Source: an uncultured Candidatus Saccharibacteria bacterium | Lineage (GTDB): Bacteria; Patescibacteriota; Minisyncoccia; Phycocordibacterales; UBA2163 | Assembly: GCA_964575575.1 (NCBI GenBank) | Contig: CAZNQQ010000002.1 | Coordinates: 1-56,981 of the forward strand | DNA: 56,981 bases | Direction: 5' to 3' | Shown: positions 12,908 to 28,990 of the stretch, piece after piece | Layout: the number at the start of each line of letters is the position of its first letter | Numbering within the stretch: the stretch's first letter is position 1 | Made by a program: the position numbers and the translations under genes | The notes under the pieces: model-generated | Databases searched by the model: none | What the model was told of the DNA's origin: nothing | Seen by the model: the letters and a program-made list of their open reading frames with translations, nothing else

Positions 12908-13603
12908 TTACTTTTTTTTCAAGAAAAAACATACTCTGTCTGAAAAAGCTTCGCAACGTGGTAATATTCTATTTTTTGCTGGGAAATTAACCCCCGGCAA
13001 GAAATTTAGTCGTCCTAGCATCGGCATAGGGCCTCTGTTGTAGTGAGTTTTTACTAAGTCAAAGTCCTTCAAATAAGTCTTCTTGAAAACGTCTTTTGTG
13101 GTAAAAAGTAAATGATTATTATCAAGTGTCCAACCAGACATACTGCCAGTAAGTGCAAATTTTATTCTATAGAAGATATTAAATTGATTTGGGATTGAAA
13201 ATATAAACATCCCGTCTTTCTTTAAAGTTCTTGATGTTTCTTGTGCAATTAGAAAGTAATTTTCTAGATGTTCAACTACCTGAAAAGCGACGACGACATC
13301 TAGTTCGTCATTTTTGAAATTTAACTTCTCGATATTCAAATCTAATGACTGATGTTTGTATTTTTTATTCTCAAGATAGTTTGCTAAATCGGCACCATAT
13401 AAATCCTGGAAGCCTATTTTGTCTAATTTATCAAGAAAATAGCCTCTACCACACCCTATTTCAAGTATCTTGGAATCTTTTTTAATGAATTTATTAAAAT
13501 AATCAAAGATAAAGGGCTCTTTTAAAATCCAGCTCAATGACTCTTTAATACCAACGTACAATTCTGGCTTCTCTTTTATTTTTTTTGATTCTAAATATTC
13601 CAT
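12908..13603 (-). CDS. Class I SAM-dependent methyltransferase
   Basis: 231 aa. Motif I ILEIGCGRGYFLDKL; post-I/II DVVVAFQVVEHL. Confidence 0.75.
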   Translation of the reverse strand: MEYLESKKIKEKPELYVGIKESLSWILKEPFIFDYFNKFIKKDSKILEIGCGRGYFLDKLDKIGFQDLYGADLANYLENKKYKHQSLDLNIEKLNFKNDELDVVVAFQVVEHLENYFLIAQETSRTLKKDGMFIFSIPNQFNIFYRIKFALTGSMSGWTLDNNHLLFTTKDVFKKTYLKDFDLVKTHYNRGPMPMLGRLNFLPGVNFPAKNRILPRCEAFSDRVCFFLKKK

Positions 13604-14548
13604 TTATATATTTAAATGTTTTTTGAGCTTATTCGCAATAAACACGTCTGTGGCTACTCTAGATTCATAAGTCATTCCCCCTATATGTGGAACAATTATC
13701 AAGTTTTGATTTTGTTTAGCATATTCAACAAGTGGATGATCAGAAAAATTTTCAGCAAATTTAAGTTCATCTGCTAACACATCTGTTCCATATCCTGCTA
13801 TTTGCTTTTTTTCAAGCGCTTTGACTAAATCATCTTCGTTGACTATCTTACCACGCGATGTGTTTACAATATAAGCATTATTTTTTATTTTCCCCAAGAC
13901 TTTAGAATCAAACATGTTCTCAGTTTCATTATTTAAAGGTGCGTGGATTGAAATTATGTCACTGTTTGAAAGCAATTCATCAAAAGATTTTTTTTCATAT
14001 TCAGTATCATCAACATATGGATCACAGTAAATCACATTCATATTGAATGCTTTTCCATATCGCGCCATCCATCTACCCAAACGCCCTAATCCAACAATAC
14101 CAAGTGTCTTGCCATACAGATTATGCCCACGAAATTTTTCTCTATCCCACTGATAATTTTTTACAGAATCAAATGCTGCTGGTGTTAATCGCAATAATTG
14201 GACCATAAGACCAAATGCAAGTTCTGCTGTACCTGTAATAGAATTTAAAAACTCTGTCTCCTCTTTTAGACTTAGCACTTCTACACTCTTTGACTGTGCA
14301 TATTCCAAATCAATATGATCAAGCCCTGTTGCGGGAACTGCGATAGCTTTCAGATTTTTTGCTTTTTCAAGTATGTCTTTGTCGAAATTAAGACCAAGTC
14401 CAATGACAGCCATGTCATACTTTTCTATAATCTCCACCAGCTCATTTTGTGTCGGTGTAATATAATCAACTTCTCCAAGCTCACCCAAAATAGCCTTTGC
14501 TTCATTAGCATAATCTTCCCCAATTGTATTTAAAATTTTATATAACAT
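13604..14548 (-). CDS. D-isomer-specific 2-hydroxyacid dehydrogenase (phosphoglycerate-dehydrogenase-like), NAD-binding
   Basis: 314 aa. Shows GKTLGIVGLGRLGRWMARYG, NTSRGKIV and VPHIGGMT. Confidence 0.85.
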   Translation of the reverse strand: MLYKILNTIGEDYANEAKAILGELGEVDYITPTQNELVEIIEKYDMAVIGLGLNFDKDILEKAKNLKAIAVPATGLDHIDLEYAQSKSVEVLSLKEETEFLNSITGTAELAFGLMVQLLRLTPAAFDSVKNYQWDREKFRGHNLYGKTLGIVGLGRLGRWMARYGKAFNMNVIYCDPYVDDTEYEKKSFDELLSNSDIISIHAPLNNETENMFDSKVLGKIKNNAYIVNTSRGKIVNEDDLVKALEKKQIAGYGTDVLADELKFAENFSDHPLVEYAKQNQNLIIVPHIGGMTYESRVATDVFIANKLKKHLNI

Positions 14549-14552
14549 ATTA

Positions 14553-15260
14553 TTATTTCTTAAGCCTGTTCATCCAGAATTCTGCGAGCTCAAAGTCAAT
14601 TGGTTCATTTATATCAGTAGAGCGTTCTTCTGGCATAACATAGGGTCGCGACACTTTGCCGAACAAATCCCCTTTCATTATGTATTCGACTTTTGTGAGA
14701 TATATTGCACAATTTCTTTTATATACTTTTGAAAGCTCTTGTCTTCGTGCAGATTTTTTTCCCTCATCTTCTAAAAATGGCAAGATCTTATCGTCTTCTA
14801 TTTTCTTCAATTTTTTAAGCGAGAAATCTGTAAGTTCCACCATACTCATCACTGAATCTGCGTCCGTATCAACAATTTTTTTAATACATTCATCTATATC
14901 TTCTACACTGCGCAATGGCGAAGTCGGCTGTAAAATCATCAAATGATCGTATTCTTCATTATCATTTTCTTTAAGCCATTTTAGAACATGCTGCACAACC
15001 TCCATTGAAGTACTTTTATCTCCAGCTATTTCTTTTGGACGCATAAATGGCACGTCCCCTTTATATTTTTTAGAAACTTCTGCGATATCATCATCATCAG
15101 TTGATACTATTGTACGCGTTATATATTTACTTTTATTTGCAGCTTCAATAGTGTATGCAATCAAAGGTTTTCCTGAAAATGGTTTTATATTTTTACCAGG
15201 GATTCCTTTTGAACCGCCACGCGCTGTTATAACAGCTAATACTTTTTTTTCTTTATACAT
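14553..15260 (-). CDS. neuA: Acylneuraminate (nonulosonate) cytidylyltransferase, CMP-NulO synthetase
   Basis: 235 aa. AVITARGGSKGIPGKNIKPFSGKPLIAYTIEAA and LQPTSPLR are typical of the CMP-NeuAc synthetase family. The sugar specificity (Neu/Leg/other) is not determinable here. Confidence 0.8.
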   Translation of the reverse strand: MYKEKKVLAVITARGGSKGIPGKNIKPFSGKPLIAYTIEAANKSKYITRTIVSTDDDDIAEVSKKYKGDVPFMRPKEIAGDKSTSMEVVQHVLKWLKENDNEEYDHLMILQPTSPLRSVEDIDECIKKIVDTDADSVMSMVELTDFSLKKLKKIEDDKILPFLEDEGKKSARRQELSKVYKRNCAIYLTKVEYIMKGDLFGKVSRPYVMPEERSTDINEPIDFELAEFWMNRLKK

Positions 15261-15271
15261 AATTAATATAA

Positions 15272-16435
15272 TTACTCATGAAACTTTTTTTGTATAGCTG
15301 GATTTATTGTTGCCAAAATTTTAGCAATCTTCTTTCCTGTATTTTCTTTATAATATATATCGTCTTTATTATATCTACCAATTTTGATCTGTCCTCGCAC
15401 AGCTTTTTTAATATCATCTTTATTATGCTTATTTACATCAACAACATTGCTTCCTCGCATCCTTCCGTTTTGCCTACTACCGATATTAACAGATGGTATC
15501 CCAAGATACGAACATTCTTTTATACCAGAAGATGAATTCCCCACAACACAAAGTGTATTTTTCAGTAAACCTGTAAATTCTTCAGGTGGTAAATATTTAA
15601 TAAAACGTATATGTTTTGGATTATTGTTTTCTCTAAAAGCACGGATTGCTTTTGACACTTCATCAGCACCAGCGTCAACGTTTGGCCAGAACCAGATAGT
15701 TGGTATTTTAAGTTCGTGTATAGCATTGAGTATCTCTAAAGTATGTTTTCTATTTTTTCCATATTCTGTAGTAACAGGATGATTTAATACTAAAAGATAT
15801 GGTTTGTTTATATCAATAGAATCTCCTACTCCGAAATGATTGACGAGTTTGTTATGAGCCTTATAATTATTTTTTGCTATAAATTCTATATCCGGAGAAC
15901 CTACATTGAATACATAGTCTGAATGTTCCCCCATTTTTATTATTCTGTCTTTAGATAAATCATTTGTTGAAAAATGAATATGTGACAATTTAGTAATTGC
16001 ATGTCGTACACTCTCGTCTATTGTTCCTGACAAATCACCACCTTCAATATGTGCAATTGGAATATTTAAATATGACGCAGTCAAAGCAACCGCAAGCATT
16101 TCGTATCTGTCACCACGTATAATAACAACGTCAGGTTCAAGATTCTCAAATACTGTCGCAAATTCTGTAATACCAATACCAGCTGTTTTTGCCATAGCAG
16201 TAGGGCTTCCACCCGCTAAAGTCATAATGATTTTAGCGCTACATTTAAAGCCGTCTTTTTCCATTATAGAAAGCACGTCACCGTATTCTGGCAGAAGAGC
16301 GGAAGCACCAACTATGATTTGGAGCTCTACGTCTTTGCGTTTTTTCAATTCCTCCAAAAGAATCTTATTCCTACCATAGTGAATCACTGAAGTAATCACA
16401 AAGCATATTTTTCTTTTTTTCTTAATAGTTGTCAT
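15272..16435 (-). CDS. neuC: Hydrolysing UDP-N-acetylglucosamine 2-epimerase (NeuC/LegG type)
   Basis: 387 aa. Shows HIEGGDLSGTIDESVRHAITKLSHIHF and VGNSSSGIKE. Confidence 0.85.
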   Translation of the reverse strand: MTTIKKKRKICFVITSVIHYGRNKILLEELKKRKDVELQIIVGASALLPEYGDVLSIMEKDGFKCSAKIIMTLAGGSPTAMAKTAGIGITEFATVFENLEPDVVIIRGDRYEMLAVALTASYLNIPIAHIEGGDLSGTIDESVRHAITKLSHIHFSTNDLSKDRIIKMGEHSDYVFNVGSPDIEFIAKNNYKAHNKLVNHFGVGDSIDINKPYLLVLNHPVTTEYGKNRKHTLEILNAIHELKIPTIWFWPNVDAGADEVSKAIRAFRENNNPKHIRFIKYLPPEEFTGLLKNTLCVVGNSSSGIKECSYLGIPSVNIGSRQNGRMRGSNVVDVNKHNKDDIKKAVRGQIKIGRYNKDDIYYKENTGKKIAKILATINPAIQKKFHE

Positions 16436-16442
16436 AATTTTA

Positions 16443-17546
16443 CTATTCTAGCACATCGAGTATTATTGGATCATATTTTTTAATACTCTTTTTTATTTTT
16501 CTACCGACCACTTCATCAAATTTTTCTGAAGGCAATCCTTTTGCATACATTTTCGGGCGCATAGCGAACACCATATCTTTTGTTATAACAGTTCCTTCAG
16601 GGATATCACACCCCGCCATAAGCGACTTGTTAAAATATGGCCTAAATTTATTGTCAGCACCTTCAAGTTCCTTTTCTTTATTTCCATAAAACGGAGCTTC
16701 GTTGATGTCTTTGTATCTATGACTTTTTATTGCACTAACCATCGATTTCATCTCTTCTGGCGTCATTGAAACTTTGTGGTCCGAACCCCATAAATCTCGT
16801 GATAGAGAAAAATGTTTTTCTATTATACTCGCACCAAGCTTTACTGCAGCGAGAGAAATATCGTAACCCACAGAGTGATCAGAAAAACCTACTGTAATAT
16901 CTGGATATTTTTCTTTTAATTTCTCTATTGTACTCAAATTAAAATAATCAGACGAAGCAGGATACTGACTAATACAGTAAAGCAAAGCTACTGGAGCATT
17001 TTTTGATTGTAAATATTTAACTGTTTCATCAAGCTCATCAAAACTCACCATACCGTTTGAGATAATGATGGGCTTCCCTGTGCTCGCTAGATAATCAAGT
17101 GTTGGATAATCTTGTGCATCACCTGAACCAACTTTCCAAAATGGTACGTCAACTTTTTGAAGTTTTTGTGCTGCCTTTTTACTCATTGGAGTTGAGAAAA
17201 AGATTATTCCTTTTTCGTCACAATATTTTTTCAGTGGCTTTATAAAAGTTTCAAGCGGGGTTGCATTTGTGTTTCTAGTTACCCAGCTATACCTATCACT
17301 CCCTTTAAAATGCGGAGACACTATGTTGATATTAAGTTGTTCATCTTCAACTTCATGTGTTTGAAATTTCACAGCATCAGCACCTGCTTCTACTGCCGCA
17401 TCTACCAAGTCTTTCGCATTCTGTAGATACTCTTCAACAGAGCGATTATCTTCGCTTTGAATAAAATTCTTACCTATTTCTGCAATCACAAAAACATAGT
17501 CTTTATCAAGTAAATTAGCTGTATTTTTTGTATTTATTGAAATCAT
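16443..17546 (-). CDS. neuB: NeuB-family nonulosonic acid synthase (divergent) with C-terminal SAF domain
   Basis: 367 aa. Shows FVIAEIGKNF, GADAVKFQTH, KVGSGD, FSDHS, and a C-terminal SAF-like block DIPEGTVITKDMVFAMRP. The N-terminal motif differs from the canonical AEIGxNHNG. Confidence 0.75.
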   Translation of the reverse strand: MISINTKNTANLLDKDYVFVIAEIGKNFIQSEDNRSVEEYLQNAKDLVDAAVEAGADAVKFQTHEVEDEQLNINIVSPHFKGSDRYSWVTRNTNATPLETFIKPLKKYCDEKGIIFFSTPMSKKAAQKLQKVDVPFWKVGSGDAQDYPTLDYLASTGKPIIISNGMVSFDELDETVKYLQSKNAPVALLYCISQYPASSDYFNLSTIEKLKEKYPDITVGFSDHSVGYDISLAAVKLGASIIEKHFSLSRDLWGSDHKVSMTPEEMKSMVSAIKSHRYKDINEAPFYGNKEKELEGADNKFRPYFNKSLMAGCDIPEGTVITKDMVFAMRPKMYAKGLPSEKFDEVVGRKIKKSIKKYDPIILDVLE

Positions 17547-17608
17547 TTGTATTTAATATGTTGTGCTTTATACAACCAATATAAGCCAAAAAAGTGACTA
17601 TTTTAGCA

Positions 17609-18706
17609 TTATCTCGGATTTGGCCTATCTTGGTCGCAATCACCGCGAGTTATGTAAAAATAGCTATATTCTGCCGTACCAAGACTTTTAATATCTTCAT
17701 CTATAATTTTAAATGCAAAGTTTGTTGAACGACGTTTATGGTCTATCGGACTGAAAAGATATGGTACAAATACATAGGGCTCTTTGTTGGTTTCCTCAAA
17801 CCCCACACTTCCAAGCGCGCTATTATAAAAATCTCCAGTAAAAGAAAAGTCTACTAGACATGCTTTTCTTTCAGCAAACCATTCACATACTGCTGTGAAC
17901 ATAAATTCTTCTATCTCGTCTTCTGATGCAAAATCAACTATACGTCCAACCATGTACTCTCCCGACTCTTCCAATCTTAGGACAGCAAACGCTTTTATTT
18001 TATTATCTTTTTTTGCAACAAAAAGTTTATAGTCAAAAATTGGGTGGTTAGCATATCGCCAATTTAAATATTTACTATTTCTATTTACTGCGACTTTGTA
18101 TTTATTTCTCACACTTCCCCAAAAACTATCTACGTCCTTATTAAATAAATTAATTTGTAAAAACTCAAACTCACCTTTCTTAGATAAATTTTTTGTCTCA
18201 TCAAACACCAAACCTTCTTTACTAATCATTTTTTTAACTTTTTCTGCATCAAATATTTTTACAAATCTACGAACTAGCATCTGCTCTTGCTTATCAGTAT
18301 GAATTTGCCAACCATTTTTATCAAAAAGTTTTTCAAGTGCTAGCTTATAAGATGTAGTGTAAGCAATCTGTGAATCCTTGAGCGCAACATCCAACATCTC
18401 ATGCCCAAATCCTTTAGAGTGAAGTACTTCCTCTGTCTGCCAATTAGCAAGACATACTCCATAAATATCTTTCCCGAAATAATTAAAAGAAAGTGGAATA
18501 ACACCAAGAAATCCCATTATTTTTTCTTTTATTTTAATAATAAATATATTTATGCCTGATATTTTTGAAAAAGGAGTTTTGTACTGCCAGTTAACAAATT
18601 CTTTGTTAGTTAAAATATAACGATCATGAAACCAACCTCCAACAAAAGCAACAAACTGCGCCCAATCTTTCTCATCTAGTAATTTTATATATTTTTTGAG
18701 TTCCAT
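17609..18706 (-). CDS. Two-lobed GNAT-fold (FemAB/Acetyltransf_6-like) acyltransferase candidate
   Basis: ORF track 17609..18751. Start moved to MELKKYIK (ATG at 18706), 1 nt after the ACP stop. The internal repeat of a beta-alpha pattern (FGHEMLD... and VGRIVDF...) is compatible with tandem acyl-CoA N-acyltransferase folds. The family call is weak. Confidence 0.45.
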   Translation of the reverse strand: MELKKYIKLLDEKDWAQFVAFVGGWFHDRYILTNKEFVNWQYKTPFSKISGINIFIIKIKEKIMGFLGVIPLSFNYFGKDIYGVCLANWQTEEVLHSKGFGHEMLDVALKDSQIAYTTSYKLALEKLFDKNGWQIHTDKQEQMLVRRFVKIFDAEKVKKMISKEGLVFDETKNLSKKGEFEFLQINLFNKDVDSFWGSVRNKYKVAVNRNSKYLNWRYANHPIFDYKLFVAKKDNKIKAFAVLRLEESGEYMVGRIVDFASEDEIEEFMFTAVCEWFAERKACLVDFSFTGDFYNSALGSVGFEETNKEPYVFVPYLFSPIDHKRRSTNFAFKIIDEDIKSLGTAEYSYFYITRGDCDQDRPNPR

Positions 18707-18707
18707 T

Positions 18708-18932
18708 CTATAAAACTTTATGTTTTTTAAGTATAGATTTAATATCGCCAATATTTTTTATAGCAATCACTTCTTCGATATCAAATTTAACATTAAAATT
18801 TTTCTCAAGTTCTGACACAAGCAAAAGACCATTGAAAGAATCCCACTGGCCAGTATTTTCTGGGCTTGTATCATCATTTATTTTATCTGGATCAATATTT
18901 AATATTTTTCCAACTGTTTCTTCTACTGTCAT
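18708..18932 (-). CDS. Acyl carrier protein
   Basis: 74 aa. The phosphopantetheine-attachment context is GQWDSFNGLLLVSELE, within an acidic four-helix-like sequence. Confidence 0.75.
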   Translation of the reverse strand: MTVEETVGKILNIDPDKINDDTSPENTGQWDSFNGLLLVSELEKNFNVKFDIEEVIAIKNIGDIKSILKKHKVL

Positions 18933-18940
18933 GATTAAGT

Positions 18941-20623
18941 TTAATTTAATTCTATAAAACTAGGTGTCTTAAAATCGCGTGTTATATGATACTCATATAT
19001 ATGTATTTTATCGCTTTTTGAGACTTCTTTGAAGCCAATATCTGCAAAAAACGTCTCACTTGGCTTGTTTTTCTGTGTTGGAATGAATTTCCCTACAATA
19101 GTTGATATATTTTCTTTTTTTGCATTATCCAATATATAACCAAACAATACTTCCTCAACTTTCCTTCCCAAAATCCTACAGCTAAGTAAAAATGTATCTA
19201 TATTCCATATATCTCCTTTAGGCTCTAATATAACAACCCCGACTATGCCATAGTCACCAAACTTATCACTTGCTTCAAGTGTCCAGATTTTCCAGCCTTT
19301 CTTAACAAAATTCTTAATATCATCTTCAGAATATCTTCTTGTAGTTAGGTTAAATTGATTCGTCTTTTGAGTTAACTGACTAGTTCGCGGAATCGTCTCT
19401 TTGGAAACTTCTTTAATTTTAACTTTTAGTTCTAGTGTTCTTAGATAATCGTCTACATCTATAGACGAGAATTTCAATTCATTTCTCTTTTTCTCATCTT
19501 TATACATTTGACTTCTTTTTTTATCCTCTTCTGTAATACCCTTTGATGAAAAACCTGTATATGTATTCAAACGATTTATAGGCACAACTGCAATCTCTGG
19601 AAATGAACTTCGTATTAAGTCCTGCTCAAAAGCGCTGTCATCGACAAATACAAAACTGTCCATACCCAAGTTAAGTTCGTCTGCCAGTTCGCGCATGTTG
19701 GTTGCTTTGTCATTCCAATTTATACGATGAGCGGCAAAATGTTTTCCTTTAAGTATCATGTCTTTGTTATTATCTATCGCGTCATATGCATCTTTTTCAT
19801 TGTTTTTACTATTTATTGCAAGAAGTACCCCTTTGTCATATAAACTTAGAATATATTTTTGAAAATCTACATCTGGCACAATGCCATCCACACCATCTTC
19901 GCCTACTATCCCCTTCCAAAGAGTATTATCTAAATCAAGTACAAGACATTTTTTTGTCACACCAGTCTTCACTACTACATATTCTGCAAATACTTCCGAA
20001 AGTGCTGGAAATGCATCTACAGCAAGACGTATGTCTCCCAATTCTGTAAACTTTGTATACCAATATTTATCTTTTCCAATTTTCTTTAGAAAATCCTCAA
20101 AATTAAATACGGAAAAATTTTTATATTCATTAACAATTTTCTTAAGAATTTTATTTAACTCTTCTACTCTCATCTCATCAACTGTATTACCATATTCTTT
20201 TGGTGATACTACAAAATTTGAAAATATTATTTTTGCATTGGTATTTAGAGAAAGAGAACTGACTAAATCTTCTATATGCTTATTGTCTCTAATATCTCTT
20301 GCATCAACTAAAACATAGACTATATCTGGGTTGAATTTATACAAGCCACTCCCATTATCCAAGATTTCCTGTGTAAATTGATTATATGGAGCATTATATG
20401 TGTCAACAAATACGTTATGAAATAATGCGTTTGAAGAAAACACCTCTGACAAACCCTGCACTGTAAAACTGCTCAGAAACGCGACTTTTGTCTTTCGCAT
20501 ATATTGTGGAATCTTGTTTTTAATATTCTTTAAATCTTTTCCCATCAAAATATAATCACCCACCGAGGCAGACTTATCGGAATAAAGATTACTTACTTTG
20601 TGTTGTATTTCTTTAAGCTCCAT
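18941..20623 (-). CDS. FkbH-like HAD-IIIC phosphatase/ACP-loading enzyme with C-terminal GNAT-like domain
   Basis: 560 aa. Shows CLVLDLDNTLWKGIVGEDG (DxDxT HAD motif in the FkbH context), INSKNNE, FVDDS, and a C-terminal FGDYGIVGVVIL...LLSCRILGRKVEE. Confidence 0.8.
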   Translation of the reverse strand: MELKEIQHKVSNLYSDKSASVGDYILMGKDLKNIKNKIPQYMRKTKVAFLSSFTVQGLSEVFSSNALFHNVFVDTYNAPYNQFTQEILDNGSGLYKFNPDIVYVLVDARDIRDNKHIEDLVSSLSLNTNAKIIFSNFVVSPKEYGNTVDEMRVEELNKILKKIVNEYKNFSVFNFEDFLKKIGKDKYWYTKFTELGDIRLAVDAFPALSEVFAEYVVVKTGVTKKCLVLDLDNTLWKGIVGEDGVDGIVPDVDFQKYILSLYDKGVLLAINSKNNEKDAYDAIDNNKDMILKGKHFAAHRINWNDKATNMRELADELNLGMDSFVFVDDSAFEQDLIRSSFPEIAVVPINRLNTYTGFSSKGITEEDKKRSQMYKDEKKRNELKFSSIDVDDYLRTLELKVKIKEVSKETIPRTSQLTQKTNQFNLTTRRYSEDDIKNFVKKGWKIWTLEASDKFGDYGIVGVVILEPKGDIWNIDTFLLSCRILGRKVEEVLFGYILDNAKKENISTIVGKFIPTQKNKPSETFFADIGFKEVSKSDKIHIYEYHITRDFKTPSFIELN

Positions 20624-20624
20624 A

Positions 20625-21581
20625 TTATTTAATATTACTTTGATTAAGAAAATCTTTTATATCGTTTGTATCGTATCGTGGAATAGTAAGAGGATTGTCA
20701 TTTTCTCTAACATCATGTGGTTCTGTTGTAACAGCGTATTCAATACCTTCTTTATTTAAAACTTCAAACATACCATTCAAGTCTTTGCCCAGACGACCAT
20801 AAGGATAACAAAATATATTTGGCTTTTTTGCAAAAAGTTCTGTTAATTGTTTTTGTGAATCTGATAATTCTTTTTTCATCTCATGGACTGAGATACTATC
20901 AAATGCTGGGTGGTTGTTAGTATGGTTACCTAAAATAAAACCCACGCTAAACAACTTCTTAGCTTCTTCTATGCTCATAAAAAATTCTTCTATGAGCTTT
21001 TGTTCATCCAAATCATATTCTTTGAAAAGCCATTTGAAAAATTCTTTCTGCTTACCAAGATCAAGCTGTGACAGAGCTTCTTTAAAATTTTTTATTGATA
21101 CTTTTTTTTCATGTCTTCGTTTTTCTGTAATCGCTATATCTTCGGATATGCGCAATTCTTCAGCGTCACCTTTAAGATATGTGTCAACATATTTGTTGAA
21201 TGTATTTATAAGTTCTTCTGGTACTTTTATAGATAAAAGTATATGAATCTTATGTGCAGTCGGTATATAGCCCTCGTATATTCCACTTATAATAAAAAAA
21301 GTTGCAATTGCTCTATATTTTTGCAAAATCGGTAATGCGTTTTCATACTGATCCTTTAGTCCATCATCAAAGGTAATAGCGCACACTCTTTCATCGCTCC
21401 CCTTACTCGCCTCATTGTATACTTCTTCTATAGAAGCAAAACGGTAATGTTCAGACAAAAAACGTATTTGGCGTTCAAATTCATCAACCGAACATGGGAA
21501 AATACCCCGACGCTTATCGCTTGGATTTTCTACATAATGATATGTAATAGCAATATGTTTATTGTCTAGAGAAAAATTCAT
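20625..21581 (-). CDS. Polysaccharide deacetylase (NodB homology domain)
   Basis: 318 aa. Shows ITFDDGLKDQYENALPILQKYRAIATFFI, GNHTNNH and YPYG. Confidence 0.8.
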   Translation of the reverse strand: MNFSLDNKHIAITYHYVENPSDKRRGIFPCSVDEFERQIRFLSEHYRFASIEEVYNEASKGSDERVCAITFDDGLKDQYENALPILQKYRAIATFFIISGIYEGYIPTAHKIHILLSIKVPEELINTFNKYVDTYLKGDAEELRISEDIAITEKRRHEKKVSIKNFKEALSQLDLGKQKEFFKWLFKEYDLDEQKLIEEFFMSIEEAKKLFSVGFILGNHTNNHPAFDSISVHEMKKELSDSQKQLTELFAKKPNIFCYPYGRLGKDLNGMFEVLNKEGIEYAVTTEPHDVRENDNPLTIPRYDTNDIKDFLNQSNIK

Positions 21582-21584
21582 AGA

Positions 21585-21920
21585 TTATTTAGCAACCATC
21601 GCTACAGCGACAGCTACTCCCGCATCATGGCTTATACTAACCTCTATTTTATGTGTTTTTTTTATTTTTAACACAATTTCTGGCTTACCTTCGTCATTAT
21701 GGACAACTTCAATAAGATCGTATCGTTTCATTATATCATTGCCGACCGCCTTCATTACAGCCTCTTTAGAAGCAAAAATGCCAGCAAGATGCATTGCTGA
21801 ATTTACTCCTTTGAAACAATATTTCCATTCACTCTTTGTGAAGACTTTTTCCCATGAAGAATAATCATTCTCTGAAATCTTTTCAAACCTATTTATATCT
21901 GTAATATCAACACCAATCAT
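21585..21920 (-). CDS. acpS: Holo-ACP synthase (4'-phosphopantetheinyl transferase, AcpS type)
   Basis: ORF track 21585..22031. The AcpS-like sequence starts at MIGVDITDINRFEK (ATG at 21920), 1 nt after the upstream stop. Also shows FASKEAVMKA and ISHDAGVAVA. Confidence 0.8.
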   Translation of the reverse strand: MIGVDITDINRFEKISENDYSSWEKVFTKSEWKYCFKGVNSAMHLAGIFASKEAVMKAVGNDIMKRYDLIEVVHNDEGKPEIVLKIKKTHKIEVSISHDAGVAVAVAMVAK

Positions 21921-21921
21921 G

Positions 21922-22734
21922 TTATTTATATGCAACCAAAAAATGTGCTTGGGCAAATAATTTATTTGTTTTATATGGATACTTCTGAAACAAGCTTCGA
22001 GCCTTAAGAACAGCTTTGTTAAATTTTGCAATTTTTTTGTCTAACTTAATAGAAAGCGGTGCATATATCGGAAGCGGACATACATAGATAATTTCAACTT
22101 TTTTAAATCCAGCCTTAAGTGCAGATTGTTTATATTCTTTTGCTGTTAAAGAATTTCTATAATAATCTTTTCTCATCTCAACATCTTTACGTAAAACTTT
22201 TCTCTTAATAAATTTCATAATTTTATTAAGGAATTGTATTGAAAACTTTTTTGGTATATTCAGCGAAATCATTACACCACCATCTGTAAGTACTCTGTAC
22301 TGCTCTTTGAACAATTCATCAACACTCTCAAAATGCTCGGCAAGGCCTATAGATATTGTAGCGTCAAATTTATTATCCGGAAGACCTGTCTTGAGTGCGT
22401 CTTTTACACAAAACTCTGCTTTTTCTTTATATTTATTAAATTCTTTTTTTGCAATTTCAATCGCATCGGGAACACTGTCTAGAAGTGTAGTGTCTAGATT
22501 TAAATATTTTTTTATATATAGCGACATTGTTCCTCTACCACACCCTATTTCAAGCACACTATTTGCATTAACCTTTTTTAAAATATTTTTTGCAAATAAA
22601 AAGTAATAATACAAATCAAGCTGTCGTTGTGTTATTGGTACACCCCCAACATCGACAAAAATAGATTTTTCGTCAGAATCTTTTGTATTTTTTTCGGCAA
22701 TATTTGCCCATTTTGAAGAAAATGAATAGGACAT
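21922..22734 (-). CDS. Class I SAM-dependent methyltransferase
   Basis: 270 aa. Shows VLEIGCGRGTMSLYI and DATISIGLAEHF. Confidence 0.8.
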   Translation of the reverse strand: MSYSFSSKWANIAEKNTKDSDEKSIFVDVGGVPITQRQLDLYYYFLFAKNILKKVNANSVLEIGCGRGTMSLYIKKYLNLDTTLLDSVPDAIEIAKKEFNKYKEKAEFCVKDALKTGLPDNKFDATISIGLAEHFESVDELFKEQYRVLTDGGVMISLNIPKKFSIQFLNKIMKFIKRKVLRKDVEMRKDYYRNSLTAKEYKQSALKAGFKKVEIIYVCPLPIYAPLSIKLDKKIAKFNKAVLKARSLFQKYPYKTNKLFAQAHFLVAYK

Positions 22735-22735
22735 A

Positions 22736-24124
22736 TTATATATTACTCAAAACAACATCGGCTAATCTTCTGCTGGCCATACCGTCACCCTTATAACACA
22801 ATGTTTCAAATGCTTTCATACGTGCTTCTTTTTCATATTCAGGGTTATGTAAATATCTATTTATATTTGATGTTAATTCATCTTTATCTGACACAAGCTT
22901 AATAGCGCCGTATTCTAACAACGGTTTATAATGCTCATGCATATACATTACATAAGAAATATCATTTCCTTCTTTGTCATAGAGCCCATTAAATGCAGTG
23001 TTTATAACAGGCTTATCACAACACAAAGCATCCAAAACCAATGTTGAACAAAGGGATATAATAACATCCGCGTGATAAATGGTGTTTACAAATTTTATAA
23101 TCTCAGGAGTTGTAGCATCAAAATTATCACGGAAAAATTCAGAAAAAGTATAATTATCATCAACGATCACATTTTTTCTATCTTTTAAGTAGTGGAATCT
23201 CTTCTTAACAGCATCTGTAAAATGTGAACGAATAAATAAATTAGCTGGCATATCAAGTTTGTTGTTTTCTATAGTATCAACAAGCAATTCACACACATTA
23301 TTATCATCAGGAGTCCACATACCAGACGATCCCCAGAAAATTAATTTTTTGGTTGGGTCATCAAGGCCGATTGATTTGAAAAAATCTTCTCTTGATAACA
23401 AAATATTTTTTCTTTCATATAAATCAAATTGTGGGAAACCTATAACAACTATATTTTGTGGTTTTATATTTTGACAACGTATTGCGTCACTCTTCATTAC
23501 TTCATTTTGTACGACCAAAATATCTGGAACAACTCTGTAGAAAGTGGTTGCGACATTGTCCCATCCTCGTGGCATACCTACAGTTCTTACACCTCTCTTT
23601 CGAGCTTCTTTTAAAATATCTACATCAAAACTAGATATAATAGATGTTGAGAAAACAACATCAGGATTATATTTATCAAAATACTTTTCACACCAACTAC
23701 TTGAAAATATTTTCTGCTCAACCAGACGAGTAGCTGATTTAAGTATGTGCATTCTACTTATAACGCCAAAGAAAATATTTTCAGCAAACAATAAGATTTC
23801 CCCTGCAACAGTTCTTTTACCACGTCTTAAATAACGTAATTTTCTATCCGTTTTGTTATACACAAGTAATCGACTTAACGTCCAAAATTTCCTGCGAAAT
23901 TTATTTTTATAAGGGAAAGACACAACTTCAATATCTACATCCACATCTTTAAATTCATCTACTAGATACTGTGGTAATTCTTTTCCACGAATATCAGAAA
24001 AGAGTAAAACAACTTTTGCTTTATTTTCTTTAAGATAATCCAAAAAACCTGTCCTCAAAATATTACGGACGCCAAAACCTCTTGAAATTGTAATGAATAC
24101 TGTTTTATGTTTTTTATCGTTCAT
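22736..24124 (-). CDS. Uncharacterised GT-B-like transferase (TagF/capsule-type); paralog of 43280..44674
   Basis: ORF track 22736..24160. MNDKKHKTVFITISRGFGVRNIL aligns with MNTRKTIIITIIRGMMARNLL of the paralog. Shared blocks: VGMPRGWDN/VGMPKSWDN, IGFPQFD/IGIPQFD, IRSHF/IRPHF, YHADVIISLCSTLVLDALCCDKPVI/YHADVVVNVASTIALDAMALDRPVI. Confidence 0.5.
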   Translation of the reverse strand: MNDKKHKTVFITISRGFGVRNILRTGFLDYLKENKAKVVLLFSDIRGKELPQYLVDEFKDVDVDIEVVSFPYKNKFRRKFWTLSRLLVYNKTDRKLRYLRRGKRTVAGEILLFAENIFFGVISRMHILKSATRLVEQKIFSSSWCEKYFDKYNPDVVFSTSIISSFDVDILKEARKRGVRTVGMPRGWDNVATTFYRVVPDILVVQNEVMKSDAIRCQNIKPQNIVVIGFPQFDLYERKNILLSREDFFKSIGLDDPTKKLIFWGSSGMWTPDDNNVCELLVDTIENNKLDMPANLFIRSHFTDAVKKRFHYLKDRKNVIVDDNYTFSEFFRDNFDATTPEIIKFVNTIYHADVIISLCSTLVLDALCCDKPVINTAFNGLYDKEGNDISYVMYMHEHYKPLLEYGAIKLVSDKDELTSNINRYLHNPEYEKEARMKAFETLCYKGDGMASRRLADVVLSNI

Positions 24125-24204
24125 GTTGAAATTAATGGAGAAACTTTGTACACTAAACACACGTTTGATTATATAACGACGTATATGTCGCTCAATATAA
24201 CACT

Positions 24205-25206
24205 ATGTATAACACCTTTCAAGGCAAAAACGTTCTAATTACTGGCGGAACCGGTTCGTTTGGCAAAAGTTTTGCAAAACATCTGCTAAAAAAATCAAAG
24301 CTCAAAAAGCTTGTTATATTTAGCCGTGATGAATTTAAACAACATCATCTTGCAAAAGAACTTAATGACGATAGGGTACGTTTTTTTCTAGGAGATATAC
24401 GGGATCAATCACGTCTTCACAGGGCTTTTAAAGATATTGATATAGTAATACATGCTGCTGCACTCAAACAAGTTCCGGCACTTGAATATAATCCAGACGA
24501 GGCTATAAAAACTAATGTAATTGGTACACAAAATGTCATTGAAGCAGCTGTGGATCAAAAAGTACCTAAGGTATTGCTTGTGTCTACAGACAAAGCCGCA
24601 GAACCAACCAATCTTTACGGCGCTTCAAAACTGTGCGCTGAAAAGCTTCTGATATCAGGAAATACATACGCACCCAAGAAAACTAGATTTTCAGTAGTGA
24701 GATATGGAAATGTAATAGGCAGTCGTGGAAGTATAGTTGAATCATTAATTGCTAATCCAGATACCAAGAAGGTAAATATCACCCACATGGATATGACAAG
24801 ATTTTGGATTACACTTGAACAAAGTTTTGATTTGGTTTTGTTTGCAATCAAAAATATGGTTGGTGGCGAGATATTTATACCAAAAATTCCAAGTATGAAA
24901 TTAGTTGACCTATTTGATGCAATGGCGCCAAACGCAAAAAAAGAAGTTGTCGGAATTAGACCTGGCGAAAAACTTCATGAAGCTCTGTTAACTAGCAACG
25001 AGGCGCGAACAGCAAAAGAACTGAGTAAATATTTTGTAATTCTACCTGAATCACATAACTGGTCAAAGAACAACCCTTATACAAAATACTCTAAACAAGG
25101 AAAAAAAGTGGCTTCTGATTTTGTGTTTAAAAGCGATACTAACGATAAATGGCTTTCAGTTAATGATTTCAATAAAATACTAATTAAATTTAAGAAACAA
25201 ATATAA
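24205..25206 (+). CDS. pseB: UDP-N-acetylglucosamine 4,6-dehydratase (inverting), PseB/FlaA1 type
   Basis: 333 aa. Shows NVLITGGTGSFGKSF, VIFSRDEFKQ, STDKAAEPTNLYGASK and VRYGNVIGSRGS. Confidence 0.85.
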   Translation: MYNTFQGKNVLITGGTGSFGKSFAKHLLKKSKLKKLVIFSRDEFKQHHLAKELNDDRVRFFLGDIRDQSRLHRAFKDIDIVIHAAALKQVPALEYNPDEAIKTNVIGTQNVIEAAVDQKVPKVLLVSTDKAAEPTNLYGASKLCAEKLLISGNTYAPKKTRFSVVRYGNVIGSRGSIVESLIANPDTKKVNITHMDMTRFWITLEQSFDLVLFAIKNMVGGEIFIPKIPSMKLVDLFDAMAPNAKKEVVGIRPGEKLHEALLTSNEARTAKELSKYFVILPESHNWSKNNPYTKYSKQGKKVASDFVFKSDTNDKWLSVNDFNKILIKFKKQI

Positions 25207-25208
25207 AT

Positions 25209-28904: not shown

Positions 28905-28910
28905 AGAAAT

Positions 28911-28946: not shown

Positions 28947-28973
28947 TAATTTAAAAATCTATAGGTAGTCAGA

Positions 28974-28982: not shown

Positions 28983-28990
28983 TAAACCAT

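What the first reader, a model, noticed from the sequence alone, without database searches (positions are those of the whole stretch)
12908..22734. ACP / FkbH-like loader / AcpS / NodB deacetylase / GNAT-fold / methyltransferase cassette fused into a nonulosonic-acid operon: candidate route to an unusual N-acylated sialic-acid-like sugar
Seen: 13 co-directional minus-strand genes run from 24124 to 10681. Gaps are at most 10 nt, apart from two of about 50-60 nt.

Directly upstream of neuB-neuC-neuA-like genes lies a self-contained carrier-protein system:
- AcpS-type PPTase (21585..21920);
- NodB deacetylase (20625..21581);
- FkbH-like HAD-IIIC enzyme with an intact DLDNT motif and a C-terminal GNAT-like lobe (18941..20623);
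- a 74-aa ACP with a DSF serine (18708..18932);
- a two-lobed GNAT-fold protein (17609..18706).

The cassette is flanked by two SAM methyltransferases (21922..22734 and 12908..13603) and a phosphoglycerate-dehydrogenase-like 2-hydroxyacid dehydrogenase (13604..14548).

Established: FkbH-type enzymes load a glycolysis-derived C3 (glyceryl) unit onto a dedicated ACP. NodB enzymes remove N-acetyl groups from sugars.

Inference, proposed sequence of steps:
1. The deacetylase exposes an amine on the nonulosonate or its hexosamine precursor.
2. The ACP-bound C3 acid, possibly oxidised and O-methylated, is transferred onto that amine by the GNAT-fold protein.
3. The product is CMP-activated.

A dedicated PPTase inside a glycan operon is unusual and argues that the ACP is not borrowed from fatty-acid synthesis.
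Basis: partly seen in the sequence, partly recalled or inferred. Interest (0 to 1): 0.75.

Follow-up and report, generated by a model that had tools for sequence, protein, structure and literature searches.

The report
Carrier-protein cassette re-acylating a sialic-acid-like sugar
A sugar operon, probably from a tiny uncultured (candidate-phyla) bacterium, carries its own acyl-carrier system that most likely replaces the N-acetyl group of a sialic-acid-like sugar with a glycerate-derived group, and the same cassette recurs across many phyla.

Summary
One minus-strand operon (promoter-like sites near 24170-24220, terminator-like hairpin at 10655-10670) encodes, in order:
- a TagB-like transferase and a methyltransferase;
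- an AcpS-type PPTase and a signal-less CE4 deacetylase;
- a bona fide FkbH (327 bits against a cut-off of 147) and a 74-aa ACP;
- an unannotated 365-aa protein;
- NeuB-, NeuC- and NeuA-like enzymes;
- a PGDH-like dehydrogenase, a second methyltransferase and a Wzy_C/TPR protein.

The unannotated protein models confidently (pLDDT 93.6) as a tandem GNAT and belongs to a large family with no curated model.

1. Natural FkbH-ACP-GNAT and ACP-GNAT fusion proteins exist.
2. Nine of ten long FkbH-containing relatives carry all three nonulosonate genes within 10 kb.
3. The loader is interchangeable (FkbH or an AMP-ligase), while the GNAT-deacetylase pair persists.

Some relatives have no sugar aminotransferase nearby, so N-acetyl removal would be needed to free an amine.

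N-glyceroyl and N5-(2,3-di-O-methylglyceroyl) nonulosonates are known chemically, but I found no described enzymology.

Still inferred: the acceptor stage, which amine is acylated, and the roles of the dehydrogenase and methyltransferases.

The PPTase sits in the cassette only in CPR/DPANN-type genomes.

The parts
24168..24222 (-). Promoter-like sites in the 80-nt divergent intergenic region between this operon and pseB
   Evidence: One search finds TTGAAA-17-TATATT and TTGAGC-16-TATAAT on the minus strand. One search gives the sequence. These are consensus matches only.
22736..24124 (-). TagB-like GT-B protein, a candidate nonulosonate transferase (first gene of the operon)
   Evidence: PF04464 scores 28.2 bits against a cut-off of 22.1. 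The NCBIfam BFO_1060 family scores 54 bits, below its cut-off of 200. BFO_1060/Tanf_01245 are genetically implicated Pse/Leg-derivative transferases (PMC5420450). Homologues accompany the cassette in many loci.
21922..22734 (-). SAM-dependent methyltransferase 1 (270 aa)
   Evidence: Methyltransf_11 E = 7e-18. No equivalog match. Substrate unknown.
21585..21920 (-). AcpS-type 4'-phosphopantetheinyl transferase (111 aa)
   Evidence: PF01648 scores 63.2; TIGR00516 scores 64.4 against a cut-off of 59.8. D5, E53 and K57 are invariant in 18 homologues.
20625..21581 (-). Cytoplasmic CE4 (NodB-superfamily) deacetylase with an insertion of about 100 aa
   Evidence: PF01522 scores 83.9. D72-D73, H220 and H224 are invariant in 51 homologues. 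No N-terminal hydrophobic segment in any of the 51. Nearest solved structures are 6dq3 and PgdA.
18941..20623 (-). FkbH-family loader: FkbH_N domain, HAD-IIIC domain and a C-terminal transferase-like lobe
   Evidence: TIGR01686 scores 327.4 against a cut-off of 146.65. DLDNT (D230/D232/T234), K273, D328/D329 and C482 (in LSCR) are conserved. Residues 29-347 align to PDB 3slr.
18708..18932 (-). Dedicated 74-aa acyl carrier protein
   Evidence: PF00550 scores 31.3 against a cut-off of 20.8. W30-D31-S32 are invariant in 28 homologues. It scores below all fatty-acid ACP equivalog cut-offs.
17609..18706 (-). Tandem-GNAT protein, the proposed acyl-ACP:amino-sugar N-acyltransferase (a family with no curated model)
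   Evidence: No Pfam or NCBIfam hit on this protein. The family has 3967 cluster representatives at E <= 1e-3. The AF2 model has pLDDT 93.6. Foldseek matches NMT and Eis-like tandem GNATs. Fusions with ACP and FkbH exist.
16443..17546 (-). NeuB-family nonulosonate synthase (subtype unresolved)
   Evidence: PF03102 scores 237 bits. It is below both the NeuB (265 vs 400) and the PseI (230 vs 340) equivalog cut-offs. It is closer to N. meningitidis NeuB (167 bits) than to PseI (133 bits) among solved structures.
15272..16435 (-). NeuC/LegG-type hydrolysing 2-epimerase
   Evidence: TIGR03568 scores 388.3 against a cut-off of 235.9.
14553..15260 (-). CMP-nonulosonate synthetase (NeuA/PseF-like)
   Evidence: PF02348 scores 95 bits. 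PseF scores 179 against a cut-off of 205.7.
13604..14548 (-). PGDH-like D-2-hydroxyacid dehydrogenase, role unresolved
   Evidence: 2-Hacid_dh_C scores 176 bits. PGDH scores 221.6, below its cut-off of 454. Where a homologue is detected it usually lies just downstream of NeuA, in loci with either loader type.
12908..13603 (-). SAM-dependent methyltransferase 2 (231 aa)
   Evidence: Methyltransf_23 E = 3e-16. No equivalog match.
10681..12858 (-). Wzy_C (O-antigen ligase/polymerase-like) membrane protein with C-terminal TPR repeats (last gene of the operon)
   Evidence: Wzy_C scores 74 bits, with multiple TPR hits. Strongly hydrophobic.
10655..10670 (.). G+C-rich hairpin with T-runs on both strands; a terminator-like site closing the operon
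   Evidence: a 6-bp all-GC stem followed by T-rich tails on both strands.

Best explanation
The operon makes a CMP-activated sialic-acid-like (nonulosonic) sugar whose N-acetyl group has been exchanged for a glycerate-derived acyl group. It then hands the sugar to a TagB-like transferase and a Wzy_C/TPR membrane protein for display.

**Proposed steps**
1. The in-operon AcpS converts the dedicated 74-aa apo-ACP to holo-ACP. (Domain identities shown; activity inferred.)
2. FkbH takes a glycolytic C3 unit, 1,3-bisphosphoglycerate by analogy with characterised FkbH enzymes. It dephosphorylates the unit through its DLDNT HAD site and loads glyceryl onto the ACP. (Family membership shown; substrate inferred.)
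3. The cytoplasmic CE4 deacetylase removes the N-acetyl group from a pathway intermediate. Candidates are UDP-GlcNAc, ManNAc, the free nonulosonate or its CMP form. (Inferred; the stage is unknown.)
4. The tandem-GNAT protein transfers the ACP-bound acyl group to the freed amine. (Inferred from fusions, synteny and fold.)
5. NeuC, NeuB and NeuA build and CMP-activate the sugar. (Family membership shown; order relative to steps 3-4 unknown.)
6. The two methyltransferases may O-methylate the glyceroyl hydroxyls. That would give a 2,3-di-O-methylglyceroyl group like the one at N5 of a Campylobacter jejuni pseudaminic acid. (Speculative.)

The role of the PGDH-like dehydrogenase is unresolved.

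The cassette is one form of a modular N-acyl-exchange system. The core is the GNAT plus the deacetylase. The loader is interchangeable: FkbH, an AMP-ligase, or none detected in some loci. The PPTase is carried along in host lineages that probably lack their own.
For: **Domain and motif evidence.**

**Fold of the acyltransferase.**
- The model has pLDDT 93.6.
- It gives full-length Foldseek matches to N-myristoyltransferases (E about 1e-13) and to the Eis-like protein 2ozg (TM 0.59).
- The GNAT motif-A glycines G99 and G101 are nearly invariant.

**Natural fusions.**
- P0141 has FkbH (19-583), ACP (637-700) and GNAT (726-1068) in one chain.
- P0011, P0110 and P0112 are ACP-GNAT fusions.

**Loader swapping.** In eight relatives I inspected, AcpS is followed by an AMP-binding ligase and an ACP directly upstream of the GNAT gene. 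Four of these proteins were checked against Pfam.

**Synteny.**
- Carrier-type loci are enriched for nonulosonate genes: 31/44 against 4/36, p = 8e-8.
- 9 of 10 long FkbH loci have synthase, epimerase and cytidylyltransferase genes.
- A deacetylase lies within 5 kb in 32 of 44 carrier loci.

**Need for deacetylation.** Loci such as L028 and L029 (contigs over 1 Mb) show no PseB/PseC-type genes in the 10-kb flanks. N5 would then be the only nitrogen, and deacetylation would be required to free it.

**Location.** The deacetylase and all 51 homologues lack an N-terminal hydrophobic segment.

**Chemical precedent.**
- C. jejuni makes CMP-Pse5(2,3-di-O-methylglyceroyl)7Ac, which depends on cj1295 (PMC3068675).
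- An FkbH-domain gene, cj1302, lies in the same C. jejuni locus (PMC7099621).
- T. forsythia makes Pse5Am7Gra, whose genetic basis is unknown (PMC5378307).
- A Kuenenia Leg-type cluster has a deacetylase, and free-amine CMP-nonulosonates were detected (bioRxiv 10.64898/2026.04.20.719630).

**Established FkbH function.** PMC7489565 and PMC3679948.
Against: - There are no biochemical or mass-spectrometric data for this organism or its relatives.
- The window's GNAT protein hits no curated profile. Its acceptor and donor are inferred.
- The divergent operon makes a PseC-type 4-amino sugar and lacks a recognisable PseH. The GNAT could therefore acylate that amine (N7) without any deacetylation.
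- Some related loci also carry dehydratase and aminotransferase genes (L004, L048, L065, L077).
- Methyltransferase homologues were detected in only a handful of relatives, with either loader type.
- The dehydrogenase tracks NeuA rather than FkbH, so the final acyl structure is uncertain.
- The deacetylase lacks the CE4 motif-3 arginine (CYPYG).
- The related loci were chosen through the GNAT gene. The association has not been tested starting from FkbH.
Confidence: 0.6

Rival explanations
1. The tandem GNAT stands in for PseH/LegH. It puts the ACP-bound acyl group directly on the 4-amino group made by the neighbouring PseB/PseC enzymes (or by LegB/LegC in other phyla). That would give an N7-glyceroyl sugar, as in Tannerella Pse5Am7Gra. 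The CE4 deacetylase would then act separately, for example freeing N5 for another substituent or leaving it unsubstituted.
For: - PseB and PseC score above their equivalog cut-offs and sit divergently next to the operon. No PseH-like gene was recognised in that operon.
- L003 and L033 keep the same divergent arrangement.
- Several acidobacterial and archaeal loci combine the cassette with PseB/PseC-like genes (L004, L048, L065, L077).
- N7-glyceroyl pseudaminic acid exists (PMC5378307).
Against: - Loci with only NeuC, NeuB and NeuA in the 10-kb flanks (L028, L029, L043, L046, L081) still have the cassette.
- A deacetylase lies within 5 kb of the GNAT gene in 32 of 44 carrier loci and is often directly adjacent.
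- The cassette sits in the NeuB/NeuC/NeuA operon, not in the Pse operon.
- The plus-strand operon has a formyltransferase-like gene that could itself fill the PseH step.
Confidence: 0.22
2. The carrier-protein cassette modifies something other than the nonulosonate monomer, for example the finished glycan, a lipid anchor or a protein. It is linked to the sugar genes only because all belong to one surface-glycan island.
For: - FkbH-ACP pairs also occur with a membrane MBOAT next to capsule-export genes on S. meliloti pSymB. This suggests a different, Dlt-like use of glyceryl-ACP in glycan decoration.
- Enterobacterial flagellin glycosylation islands carry ACP/LuxE/LuxC/ligase sets of unknown role (PMC4875605).
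Against: - The GNAT and CE4 proteins are soluble, with no export signal.
- The cassette is inserted between the transferase gene and NeuB within one operon, with gaps of 1-8 nt.
- Co-occurrence is specifically with the synthase, epimerase and cytidylyltransferase genes across at least six phyla.
Confidence: 0.1
3. The glyceryl-ACP is processed further before transfer, as in the methoxymalonyl-ACP pathway. The dehydrogenase and a methyltransferase would make a hydroxymalonyl-, methoxymalonyl- or hydroxypyruvoyl-type acyl group instead of (methylated) glyceroyl.
For: - A PGDH-like dehydrogenase and two methyltransferases lie in the operon.
- The FkbH, ACP, dehydrogenase and O-methyltransferase logic is established for polyketide extender units (PMC7489565).
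Against: - No FkbK-type (3-hydroxyacyl-CoA dehydrogenase) or FkbI-type (acyl-CoA dehydrogenase) domains are present. The dehydrogenase is a D-2-hydroxyacid dehydrogenase.
- It co-occurs with NeuA in AMP-ligase-type loci as well (L013, L015, L018), so it is not tied to FkbH.
- The methyltransferases are generic class-I enzymes, and homologues were detected in only a few relatives.
Confidence: 0.08

Closest known systems
Campylobacter jejuni NCTC 11168 flagellin-glycosylation locus, which makes CMP-Pse5(2,3-di-O-methylglyceroyl)7Ac (cj1295; FkbH-domain gene cj1302)
   Same: - The product is a nonulosonate whose N5 acetyl is replaced by a glycerate-derived, doubly O-methylated acyl group (PMC3068675).
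- An FkbH-domain gene lies in the sugar locus (PMC7099621).
- The window has FkbH, an ACP and two methyltransferases.
   Different: - The C. jejuni gene tied to the modification (cj1295) is aminopeptidase-like, not CE4.
- The sugar there is pseudaminic acid. Here the cassette sits with NeuC/NeuB/NeuA-type genes.
- I recall, but did not check, that the C. jejuni locus also has ACP and FabH-like genes.
- I found no biochemical assignment for the C. jejuni genes in the papers I could search.
- I could not compare sequences, because no Campylobacter genome was accessible.
Nod-factor N-acylation (NodB deacetylase, NodA acyltransferase, NodF carrier protein) and lipid A LpxC/LpxD
   Same: The logic is the same: remove an N-acetyl group from a GlcNAc-derived sugar, then N-acylate the free amine from an acyl-ACP donor. 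In the Nod system the donor is on a dedicated ACP. The deacetylase is in the same CE4 superfamily as NodB. (Established knowledge; comparison from memory.)
   Different: - The acyltransferase here is a tandem GNAT, not a NodA or a left-handed beta-helix protein.
- The acyl group is a C3 hydroxy acid loaded by FkbH, not a fatty acid.
- The acceptor is a nonulosonate-pathway intermediate.
- The deacetylase fails the NodB equivalog model (27.5 against 240 bits).
FkbH/FkbJ glyceryl-ACP loading in methoxymalonyl-ACP and tetronate polyketide pathways
   Same: - An FkbH-family enzyme scores above its curated cut-off, with an intact HAD motif and a conserved cysteine.
- A stand-alone ACP is encoded next to it (PMC7489565).
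   Different: - There are no FkbK/FkbI dehydrogenases, no PKS and no FabH-like partner.
- The consumer is a GNAT N-acyltransferase in a sugar operon.
Tandem-GNAT acyltransferases (N-myristoyltransferase; Eis-like proteins 2ozg, 3n7z, 2i00)
   Same: - Two GNAT lobes in one chain, with full-length structural matches.
- The donor-binding motif lies in the N-terminal lobe.
   Different: - Sequence identity is 9-13%, and TM scores are only 0.5-0.6.
- Those enzymes use acyl-CoA. Here, fusions to an ACP argue for an acyl-ACP donor.
- A conserved C-terminal G-D-x-D-x-D-R-P-N motif is specific to this family.
Tannerella forsythia Pse5Am7Gra / Leg-derivative system with TagB-like transferases (Tanf_01245, BFO_1060)
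   Same: - An N-glyceroyl nonulosonate.
- A TagB-like candidate transferase encoded beside the sugar genes (PMC5378307 and PMC5420450).
   Different: - The glyceroyl group there is on N7.
- The window's transferase scores only 54 bits against the BFO_1060 model (cut-off 200).
- Whether Tannerella has an FkbH/ACP/GNAT cassette was not determined.

Membership tests
FkbH family (TIGR01686; HAD-IIIC glyceryl-ACP loaders) | Scores above the curated family cut-offs | tested here: met
   TIGR01686 scores 327.4 against 146.65. TIGR01681 scores 66.5 against 35.75. PF21211 scores 34.6 against 27.
FkbH family (TIGR01686; HAD-IIIC glyceryl-ACP loaders) | HAD motif I (DxDxT nucleophile) and the other HAD catalytic residues | tested here: met
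   DLDNT is at 230-234. K273 and D328/D329 are conserved in at least 96% of 24 homologues.
FkbH family (TIGR01686; HAD-IIIC glyceryl-ACP loaders) | Conserved cysteine in the C-terminal lobe (thioester intermediate; role recalled from memory) | tested here: met
   C482 in LSCR is conserved in 96% of 24 homologues and is present in fusion protein P0141. Its catalytic role was not tested.
FkbH family (TIGR01686; HAD-IIIC glyceryl-ACP loaders) | Loads glyceryl from 1,3-bisphosphoglycerate onto a cognate ACP | not testable with these tools
   Needs an enzyme assay with intact-protein MS. The adjacent ACP and the FkbH-ACP fusions are consistent with it.
AcpS-type phosphopantetheinyl transferase | Profile scores above cut-off and single-domain size of about 110-130 aa | tested here: met
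   PF01648 scores 63.2 against 25. TIGR00516 scores 64.4 against 59.8. The protein is 111 aa.
Acyl carrier protein (PP-binding) | PF00550 hit and an invariant Asp-Ser attachment site | tested here: met
   Scores 31.3 against 20.8. W30-D31-S32 are invariant in 28 homologues.
Fatty-acid-synthesis AcpP | Reaches an AcpP equivalog cut-off | tested here: not met
   Best scores are 27 against 66 and 21 against 70.45. This is a dedicated carrier, not AcpP.
CE4 / polysaccharide deacetylase superfamily | PF01522 above cut-off, with the catalytic Asp and the Asp-His-His metal triad | tested here: met
   Scores 83.9 against 23.1. TFDDG (D72, D73) and H220-x3-H224 are invariant in 51 homologues.
CE4 / polysaccharide deacetylase superfamily | Motif 3 arginine (RxPY) | tested here: not met
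   The window has C-Y-P-Y-G. Y259-P260 are conserved but there is no arginine at that position. R302 is conserved elsewhere.
NodB (chitooligosaccharide deacetylase equivalog) | Reaches the TIGR04243 cut-off | tested here: not met
   Scores 27.5 against 240. It should be called CE4-family, not NodB.
GNAT superfamily, tandem type | Sequence profile hit to a GNAT model | tested here: inconclusive
   The window protein has no hit. 45 of 60 relatives hit PF00583. The family profile hits AAC(2') at 1e-7 and NMT at 7e-6 among PDB sequences.
GNAT superfamily, tandem type | Two GNAT lobes in the 3-D fold | tested here: met
   The model has pLDDT 93.6. It aligns over 340-380 columns to NMT, 2ozg, 3n7z and 2i00 with probability 1.0 and TM 0.5-0.59.
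GNAT superfamily, tandem type | Uses an acyl-ACP donor and an amino-sugar acceptor | not testable with these tools
   Supported indirectly by ACP-GNAT and FkbH-ACP-GNAT fusions and by synteny.
Nonulosonate core pathway (NeuC/NeuB/NeuA type) | Hydrolysing 2-epimerase, PEP-condensing synthase and CMP-synthetase encoded together | tested here: met
   TIGR03568 scores 388 against 236. PF03102 scores 237 bits. PF02348 scores 95 bits. The genes are adjacent.
Nonulosonate core pathway (NeuC/NeuB/NeuA type) | Assignable sugar type (Neu, Leg or Pse) from the synthase | tested here: inconclusive
   Below both the NeuB and the PseI equivalog cut-offs. Nearer to N. meningitidis NeuB than to PseI among solved structures. 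No phylogeny was made.
Methoxymalonyl-ACP pathway (FkbG/H/I/J/K) | FkbK-type and FkbI-type dehydrogenases and a PKS consumer | tested here: not met
   No 3-hydroxyacyl-CoA or acyl-CoA dehydrogenase domains and no PKS in the operon or the window.

The most novel reading that the evidence does not exclude
The GNAT-deacetylase pair with plug-in loaders is a widespread but undescribed, modular 'N-acyl exchange' machine for sialic-acid-like sugars. The loader is FkbH for glyceroyl and an AMP-ligase for other small acids. A new tandem-GNAT family would act as an acyl-ACP:amino-sugar N-acyltransferase. The system would span CPR bacteria, DPANN archaea, Acidobacteriota, Planctomycetota, Verrucomicrobiota and others. 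It would supply the missing enzymology behind the N-glyceroyl and di-O-methylglyceroyl nonulosonates of pathogens such as Campylobacter and Tannerella. In loci with only NeuC, NeuB and NeuA it would yield an N-glyceroyl neuraminic acid, a bacterial counterpart of N-glycolyl sialic acid made without a hydroxylase.
Probability: 0.45. Interest if true: 0.75.

Novelty: new variant of a known kind. Interest (0 to 1): 0.62.

Why it matters
**A gap in known biochemistry.** Sialic-acid-like sugars carry N-acyl groups that shape immune recognition, phage binding and motility. For the glycerate-type groups, known chemically since 2001-2009, I found no described biosynthetic enzymes. A 2017 paper called the genetic basis 'a major challenge' (PMC5378307).

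**What this cassette offers.**
- A complete candidate pathway of soluble enzymes that can be tested directly.
- A new acyltransferase family with thousands of members and no annotation.
- A modular design in which the loader is swapped. That could be used to predict, or engineer, N-acyl variants of nonulosonates.

**Wider biology.**
- Genome-reduced CPR/DPANN organisms appear to invest in elaborate surface sugars.
- They carry their own phosphopantetheinyl transferase to do so.

Tried and rejected
- **Structure prediction, first attempt.** With only 5 close sequences the model was useless (pLDDT 40.7). The 60-sequence alignment fixed this.
- **Word-indexed homologue search.** It found only 4 close relatives of the GNAT protein. 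The exhaustive profile search was needed.
- **Genome scan with the 60-sequence alignment.** A 13-sequence alignment worked.
- **NCBIfam scan of the family.** No informative model was found.
- **Literature searches.**
  - FkbH with 'glycan' or 'nonulosonic' returned only the C. jejuni FlaGrab paper.
  - A broad six-term search was not selective.
  - A gene-name search for cj1298-cj1303 gave nothing useful.
  - A search to verify my recollection that V. cholerae O1 rfbKLMNO (tetronate on perosamine) is an ACP-dependent analogue found nothing. That parallel stays a recollection and is not used as evidence.
  - 'pseudaminic' with 'Patescibacteria' returned nothing relevant.
- **Plasmid search with the GNAT protein.** It found only isolated, distant homologues on Escherichia albertii plasmids, with no informative neighbours.
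- **Considered and rejected.**
  - Membership of the methoxymalonyl-ACP pathway, because there are no FkbK/FkbI/PKS genes.
  - The label 'NodB', because the protein fails that equivalog model.
  - An exported polysaccharide deacetylase, because there is no signal sequence.
- **Not possible here.** Co-folding the ACP with FkbH or the GNAT (structure jobs exhausted, and no multimer option). Direct comparison with C. jejuni or T. forsythia genes (no accessible genomes).

Full report
**1. The observation**

The ORF list shows 13 co-directional minus-strand genes between 24160/24124 and 10681. The gaps are 1, 1, 3, 1, 8, 1, 62, 7, 11, 4, 0 and 49 nt.

A promoter-like TTGAGC-16-TATAAT site ends at 24168. 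A 6-bp all-GC hairpin with T-runs on both strands follows the last gene at 10655-10670.

The exact FkbH protein is recorded in 40 blocks of the assembly index, and 23 contigs carrying it were read. Independent gene calls give the same 111-aa AcpS and 365-aa GNAT-fold gene.

**2. Domain assignments**

Pfam and NCBIfam support every named assignment:

| Gene | Result |
|---|---|
| FkbH | TIGR01686 327.4 vs 146.65; HAD-IIIC 66.5 vs 35.75; FkbH_N 34.6 vs 27 |
| AcpS | PF01648 63.2; TIGR00516 64.4 vs 59.8 |
| ACP | PF00550 31.3 vs 20.8; below every fatty-acid AcpP cut-off |
| Deacetylase | PF01522 83.9 vs 23.1; only 27.5 vs 240 for the NodB equivalog |
| NeuC | TIGR03568 388 vs 236 |
| NeuB family | PF03102 237 bits; below both the NeuB and PseI equivalog cut-offs |
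| CMP-synthetase | PF02348 95 bits; PseF 179 vs 205.7 |
| Dehydrogenase | D-2-hydroxyacid type; closest to PGDH, 221.6 vs 454 |
| Two flanking genes | Generic class-I SAM methyltransferases |

The deacetylase is therefore CE4 superfamily, not a NodB orthologue.

The first gene is TagB-like: PF04464 scores 28.2, and the BFO_1060 family scores 54 against a cut-off of 200. That family contains the genetically implicated Pse/Leg-derivative transferases of Tannerella forsythia (PMC5420450).

The last gene is a Wzy_C membrane protein with TPR repeats.

**3. The unannotated 365-aa protein**

- It has no Pfam or NCBIfam hit.
- The word-indexed search found only four close relatives.
- An exhaustive profile search found 3967 cluster representatives at E <= 1e-3 and 965 at E <= 1e-10.
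- Of 60 relatives, 45 hit Acetyltransf_1 in the N-terminal half. None hits an informative NCBIfam model.
- A family profile matches aminoglycoside 2'-N-acetyltransferase, an Eis-like protein and the N-lobe of N-myristoyltransferase among PDB sequences.
- With 5 sequences AlphaFold failed (pLDDT 40.7). With 60 it gave pLDDT 93.6 and pTM 0.92.
- Foldseek aligns that model over its full length to N-myristoyltransferases (E about 1e-13, TM about 0.5) and to the tandem GNATs 2ozg (TM 0.59), 3n7z and 2i00.
- The GNAT motif-A glycines (G99, G101) are nearly invariant. A C-terminal G-D-x-D-x-D-R-P-N motif is characteristic of the family.

**4. Evidence that FkbH, the ACP and the GNAT work together**

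*(a) Fusion proteins.*
- P0141 (1068 aa) is FkbH (19-583), ACP (637-700, with the WDS motif) and GNAT (726-1068) in one chain.
- P0109 is a fragment with the FkbH C-terminus, an ACP and the GNAT.
- P0011, P0110 and P0112 are ACP-GNAT fusions.

*(b) Loader swapping.*
- In related loci L008, L009, L011, L013 and L015-L018, AcpS is followed by an ORF of about 500 aa and a small ORF of about 80 aa upstream of the GNAT gene.
- Pfam confirms an AMP-binding ligase in L008, L013 and L016, and an ACP in L008 and L013.
- L008 adds Fe-ADH, LuxE and LuxC genes. This resembles sets noted in enterobacterial flagellin glycosylation islands (PMC4875605).
- The GNAT protein therefore goes with a carrier protein, whichever enzyme loads it.

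**5. Link to nonulosonate genes**

A scan of one genome per species returned 80 loci. I annotated them by tblastn and phmmer with the window's proteins.

- The closest is a Parcubacteria MAG (L003). It has the same gene order and 69-86% identity over eleven genes, so the window is probably from a Patescibacteria/CPR genome.
- The cassette recurs in Parcubacteria, Saccharibacteria, Uhrbacteria, Nanoarchaeota, Verrucomicrobiota, Chloroflexota, Planctomycetota, Acidobacteriota and Binatia.
- Among 44 loci with a carrier system next to the GNAT gene, 31 hold at least one NeuB/NeuC/NeuA-type gene. Among 36 loci without a carrier, 4 do (Fisher p = 8e-8).
- Many of the 13 carrier loci that lack such genes are contigs under 15 kb.
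- Of ten FkbH loci with at least 18 kb held, nine have all three gene types.

**6. Evidence for deacetylate-then-reacylate**

- A CE4 homologue lies within 5 kb of the GNAT gene in 32 of 44 carrier loci, and is often directly adjacent.
- Its catalytic Asp pair and His-His metal ligands are invariant in 51 homologues.
- Neither it nor any homologue has an N-terminal hydrophobic segment, unlike exported polysaccharide deacetylases.
- Loci such as L028 and L029 (contigs over 1 Mb) have NeuB, NeuC and NeuA but no PseB/PseC-type genes within 10 kb. In a Neu-type pathway the only nitrogen is N5, which arrives acetylated. An N-acyltransferase there would need a deacetylase.
- Independent support that deacetylases act on nonulosonate precursors comes from a 2026 preprint. 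It reports free-amine and formylated CMP-nonulosonates and a deacetylase within a Leg-type cluster of Ca. Kuenenia.

**7. What the acyl group is**

- The window enzyme keeps DLDNT, K273, D328/D329 and C482.
- N-glyceroyl nonulosonates are known (T. forsythia Pse5Am7Gra, PMC5378307).
- C. jejuni 11168 makes CMP-7-acetamido-5-(2,3-di-O-methylglyceroyl)amino-Pse, which depends on cj1295 (PMC3068675). An FkbH-domain gene, cj1302, lies in that locus (PMC7099621).
- The window's two methyltransferases fit a di-O-methylglyceroyl product. However, methyltransferase homologues were detected in only a few relatives, and with either loader type.
- The dehydrogenase follows NeuA even in AMP-ligase loci.

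These last two roles are therefore speculative.

**8. The in-operon PPTase**

AcpS is part of the cassette in 12 of 14 CPR/DPANN loci and in 0 of 19 loci from Acidobacteriota, Planctomycetota, Verrucomicrobiota and other phyla. Five further loci of uncertain taxonomy also have it.

Many CPR/DPANN genomes lack fatty-acid synthesis (general knowledge). If so, the cassette would have to bring its own PPTase.

**9. What remains open**

- Which intermediate is deacetylated and acylated.
- Whether the target is N5 or N7. The neighbouring plus-strand operon has PseB, PseC and PseI above their equivalog cut-offs and no recognisable PseH.
- The sugar type of the divergent NeuB. It is nearer to N. meningitidis NeuB than to PseI.
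- The final acyl structure.

No biochemical evidence exists for any step.

**10. Comparison with what is known, and verdict**

- The logic matches NodB/NodA/NodF and LpxC/LpxD. The product class matches the Campylobacter and Tannerella sugars.
- The enzyme set is not described in any paper I could find. That set is FkbH, a dedicated ACP, a new tandem-GNAT family and a cytoplasmic CE4, placed in a NeuB/NeuC/NeuA operon.
- I rate it a new variant of a known kind, with interest 0.62.

Noticed in passing
window 24205-35867 (+ strand): A divergent operon holds a second and a third nonulosonate route. Its genes are PseB, PseC and PseI (each above its equivalog cut-off); a KdsB/PseF-like cytidylyltransferase; a formyltransferase-like gene (28317-28904); a 462-aa HAD-IA fusion; an NDP-sugar dehydrogenase with a KpsF-like N-terminal extension; a methyltransferase; an unannotated 385-aa protein; and a third NeuB-like/cytidylyltransferase pair (34150-35867). 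No PseH or PseG was recognised. Counting the NeuB and NeuA genes of the minus-strand operon, that makes three NeuB paralogues and four cytidylyltransferases within about 22 kb (14553-35867).
   Followed up: partly
window 37151-44674 (- strand): This stretch holds a second TagB/BFO_1060-like transferase (43280-44674) and an ABC exporter (41502-43283). It also holds a 946-aa CotH-kinase-like protein with a beta-helix domain (38658-41498), a VTC-domain protein (37843-38658) and a DUF4956 protein (37151-37837). It looks like a surface-polymer export module with a possible polyphosphate link.
   Followed up: no
L008 4782-10005; L009 3836-8953; L013 8201-9975: In relatives, the FkbH loader is replaced by an AMP-binding ligase plus an ACP. 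L008 (Pfam-confirmed) additionally has Fe-alcohol dehydrogenase, LuxE and LuxC genes upstream of the GNAT gene. L009 has ORFs of matching size and order that were not scanned. This implies other acyl groups on the same scaffold.
   Followed up: partly
P0141 (1068 aa); P0109; P0011, P0110, P0112: Natural fusion proteins exist: FkbH-ACP-GNAT and ACP-GNAT. They would be good candidates for single-chain biochemical characterisation.
   Followed up: yes
L085 (S. meliloti pSymB, CP140934.1 1032913-1037948): An FkbH-like gene and an ACP gene lie in a run with an MBOAT gene, with one further gene between the MBOAT and the ACP. Capsule-export genes (RkpR, an ABC transporter) lie about 5-9 kb downstream. 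This looks like a different, Dlt-like way of using a glyceryl-carrier protein to decorate a polysaccharide.
   Followed up: no
L084 (Escherichia albertii plasmid CP043243.1 11627-12694): A distant homologue of the tandem-GNAT family (21% identity, 91% coverage) is annotated only as 'GNAT family N-acetyltransferase'. It sits alone on 62-kb plasmids, with no carrier-protein or sugar genes nearby.
   Followed up: partly
window 1-56981: No tRNA genes were found in 57 kb. The housekeeping genes gatB (2980-4410), secA (6462-8960) and murB (9530-10462) directly flank the glycan island. That suggests a chromosomal locus, not a mobile element.
   Followed up: partly
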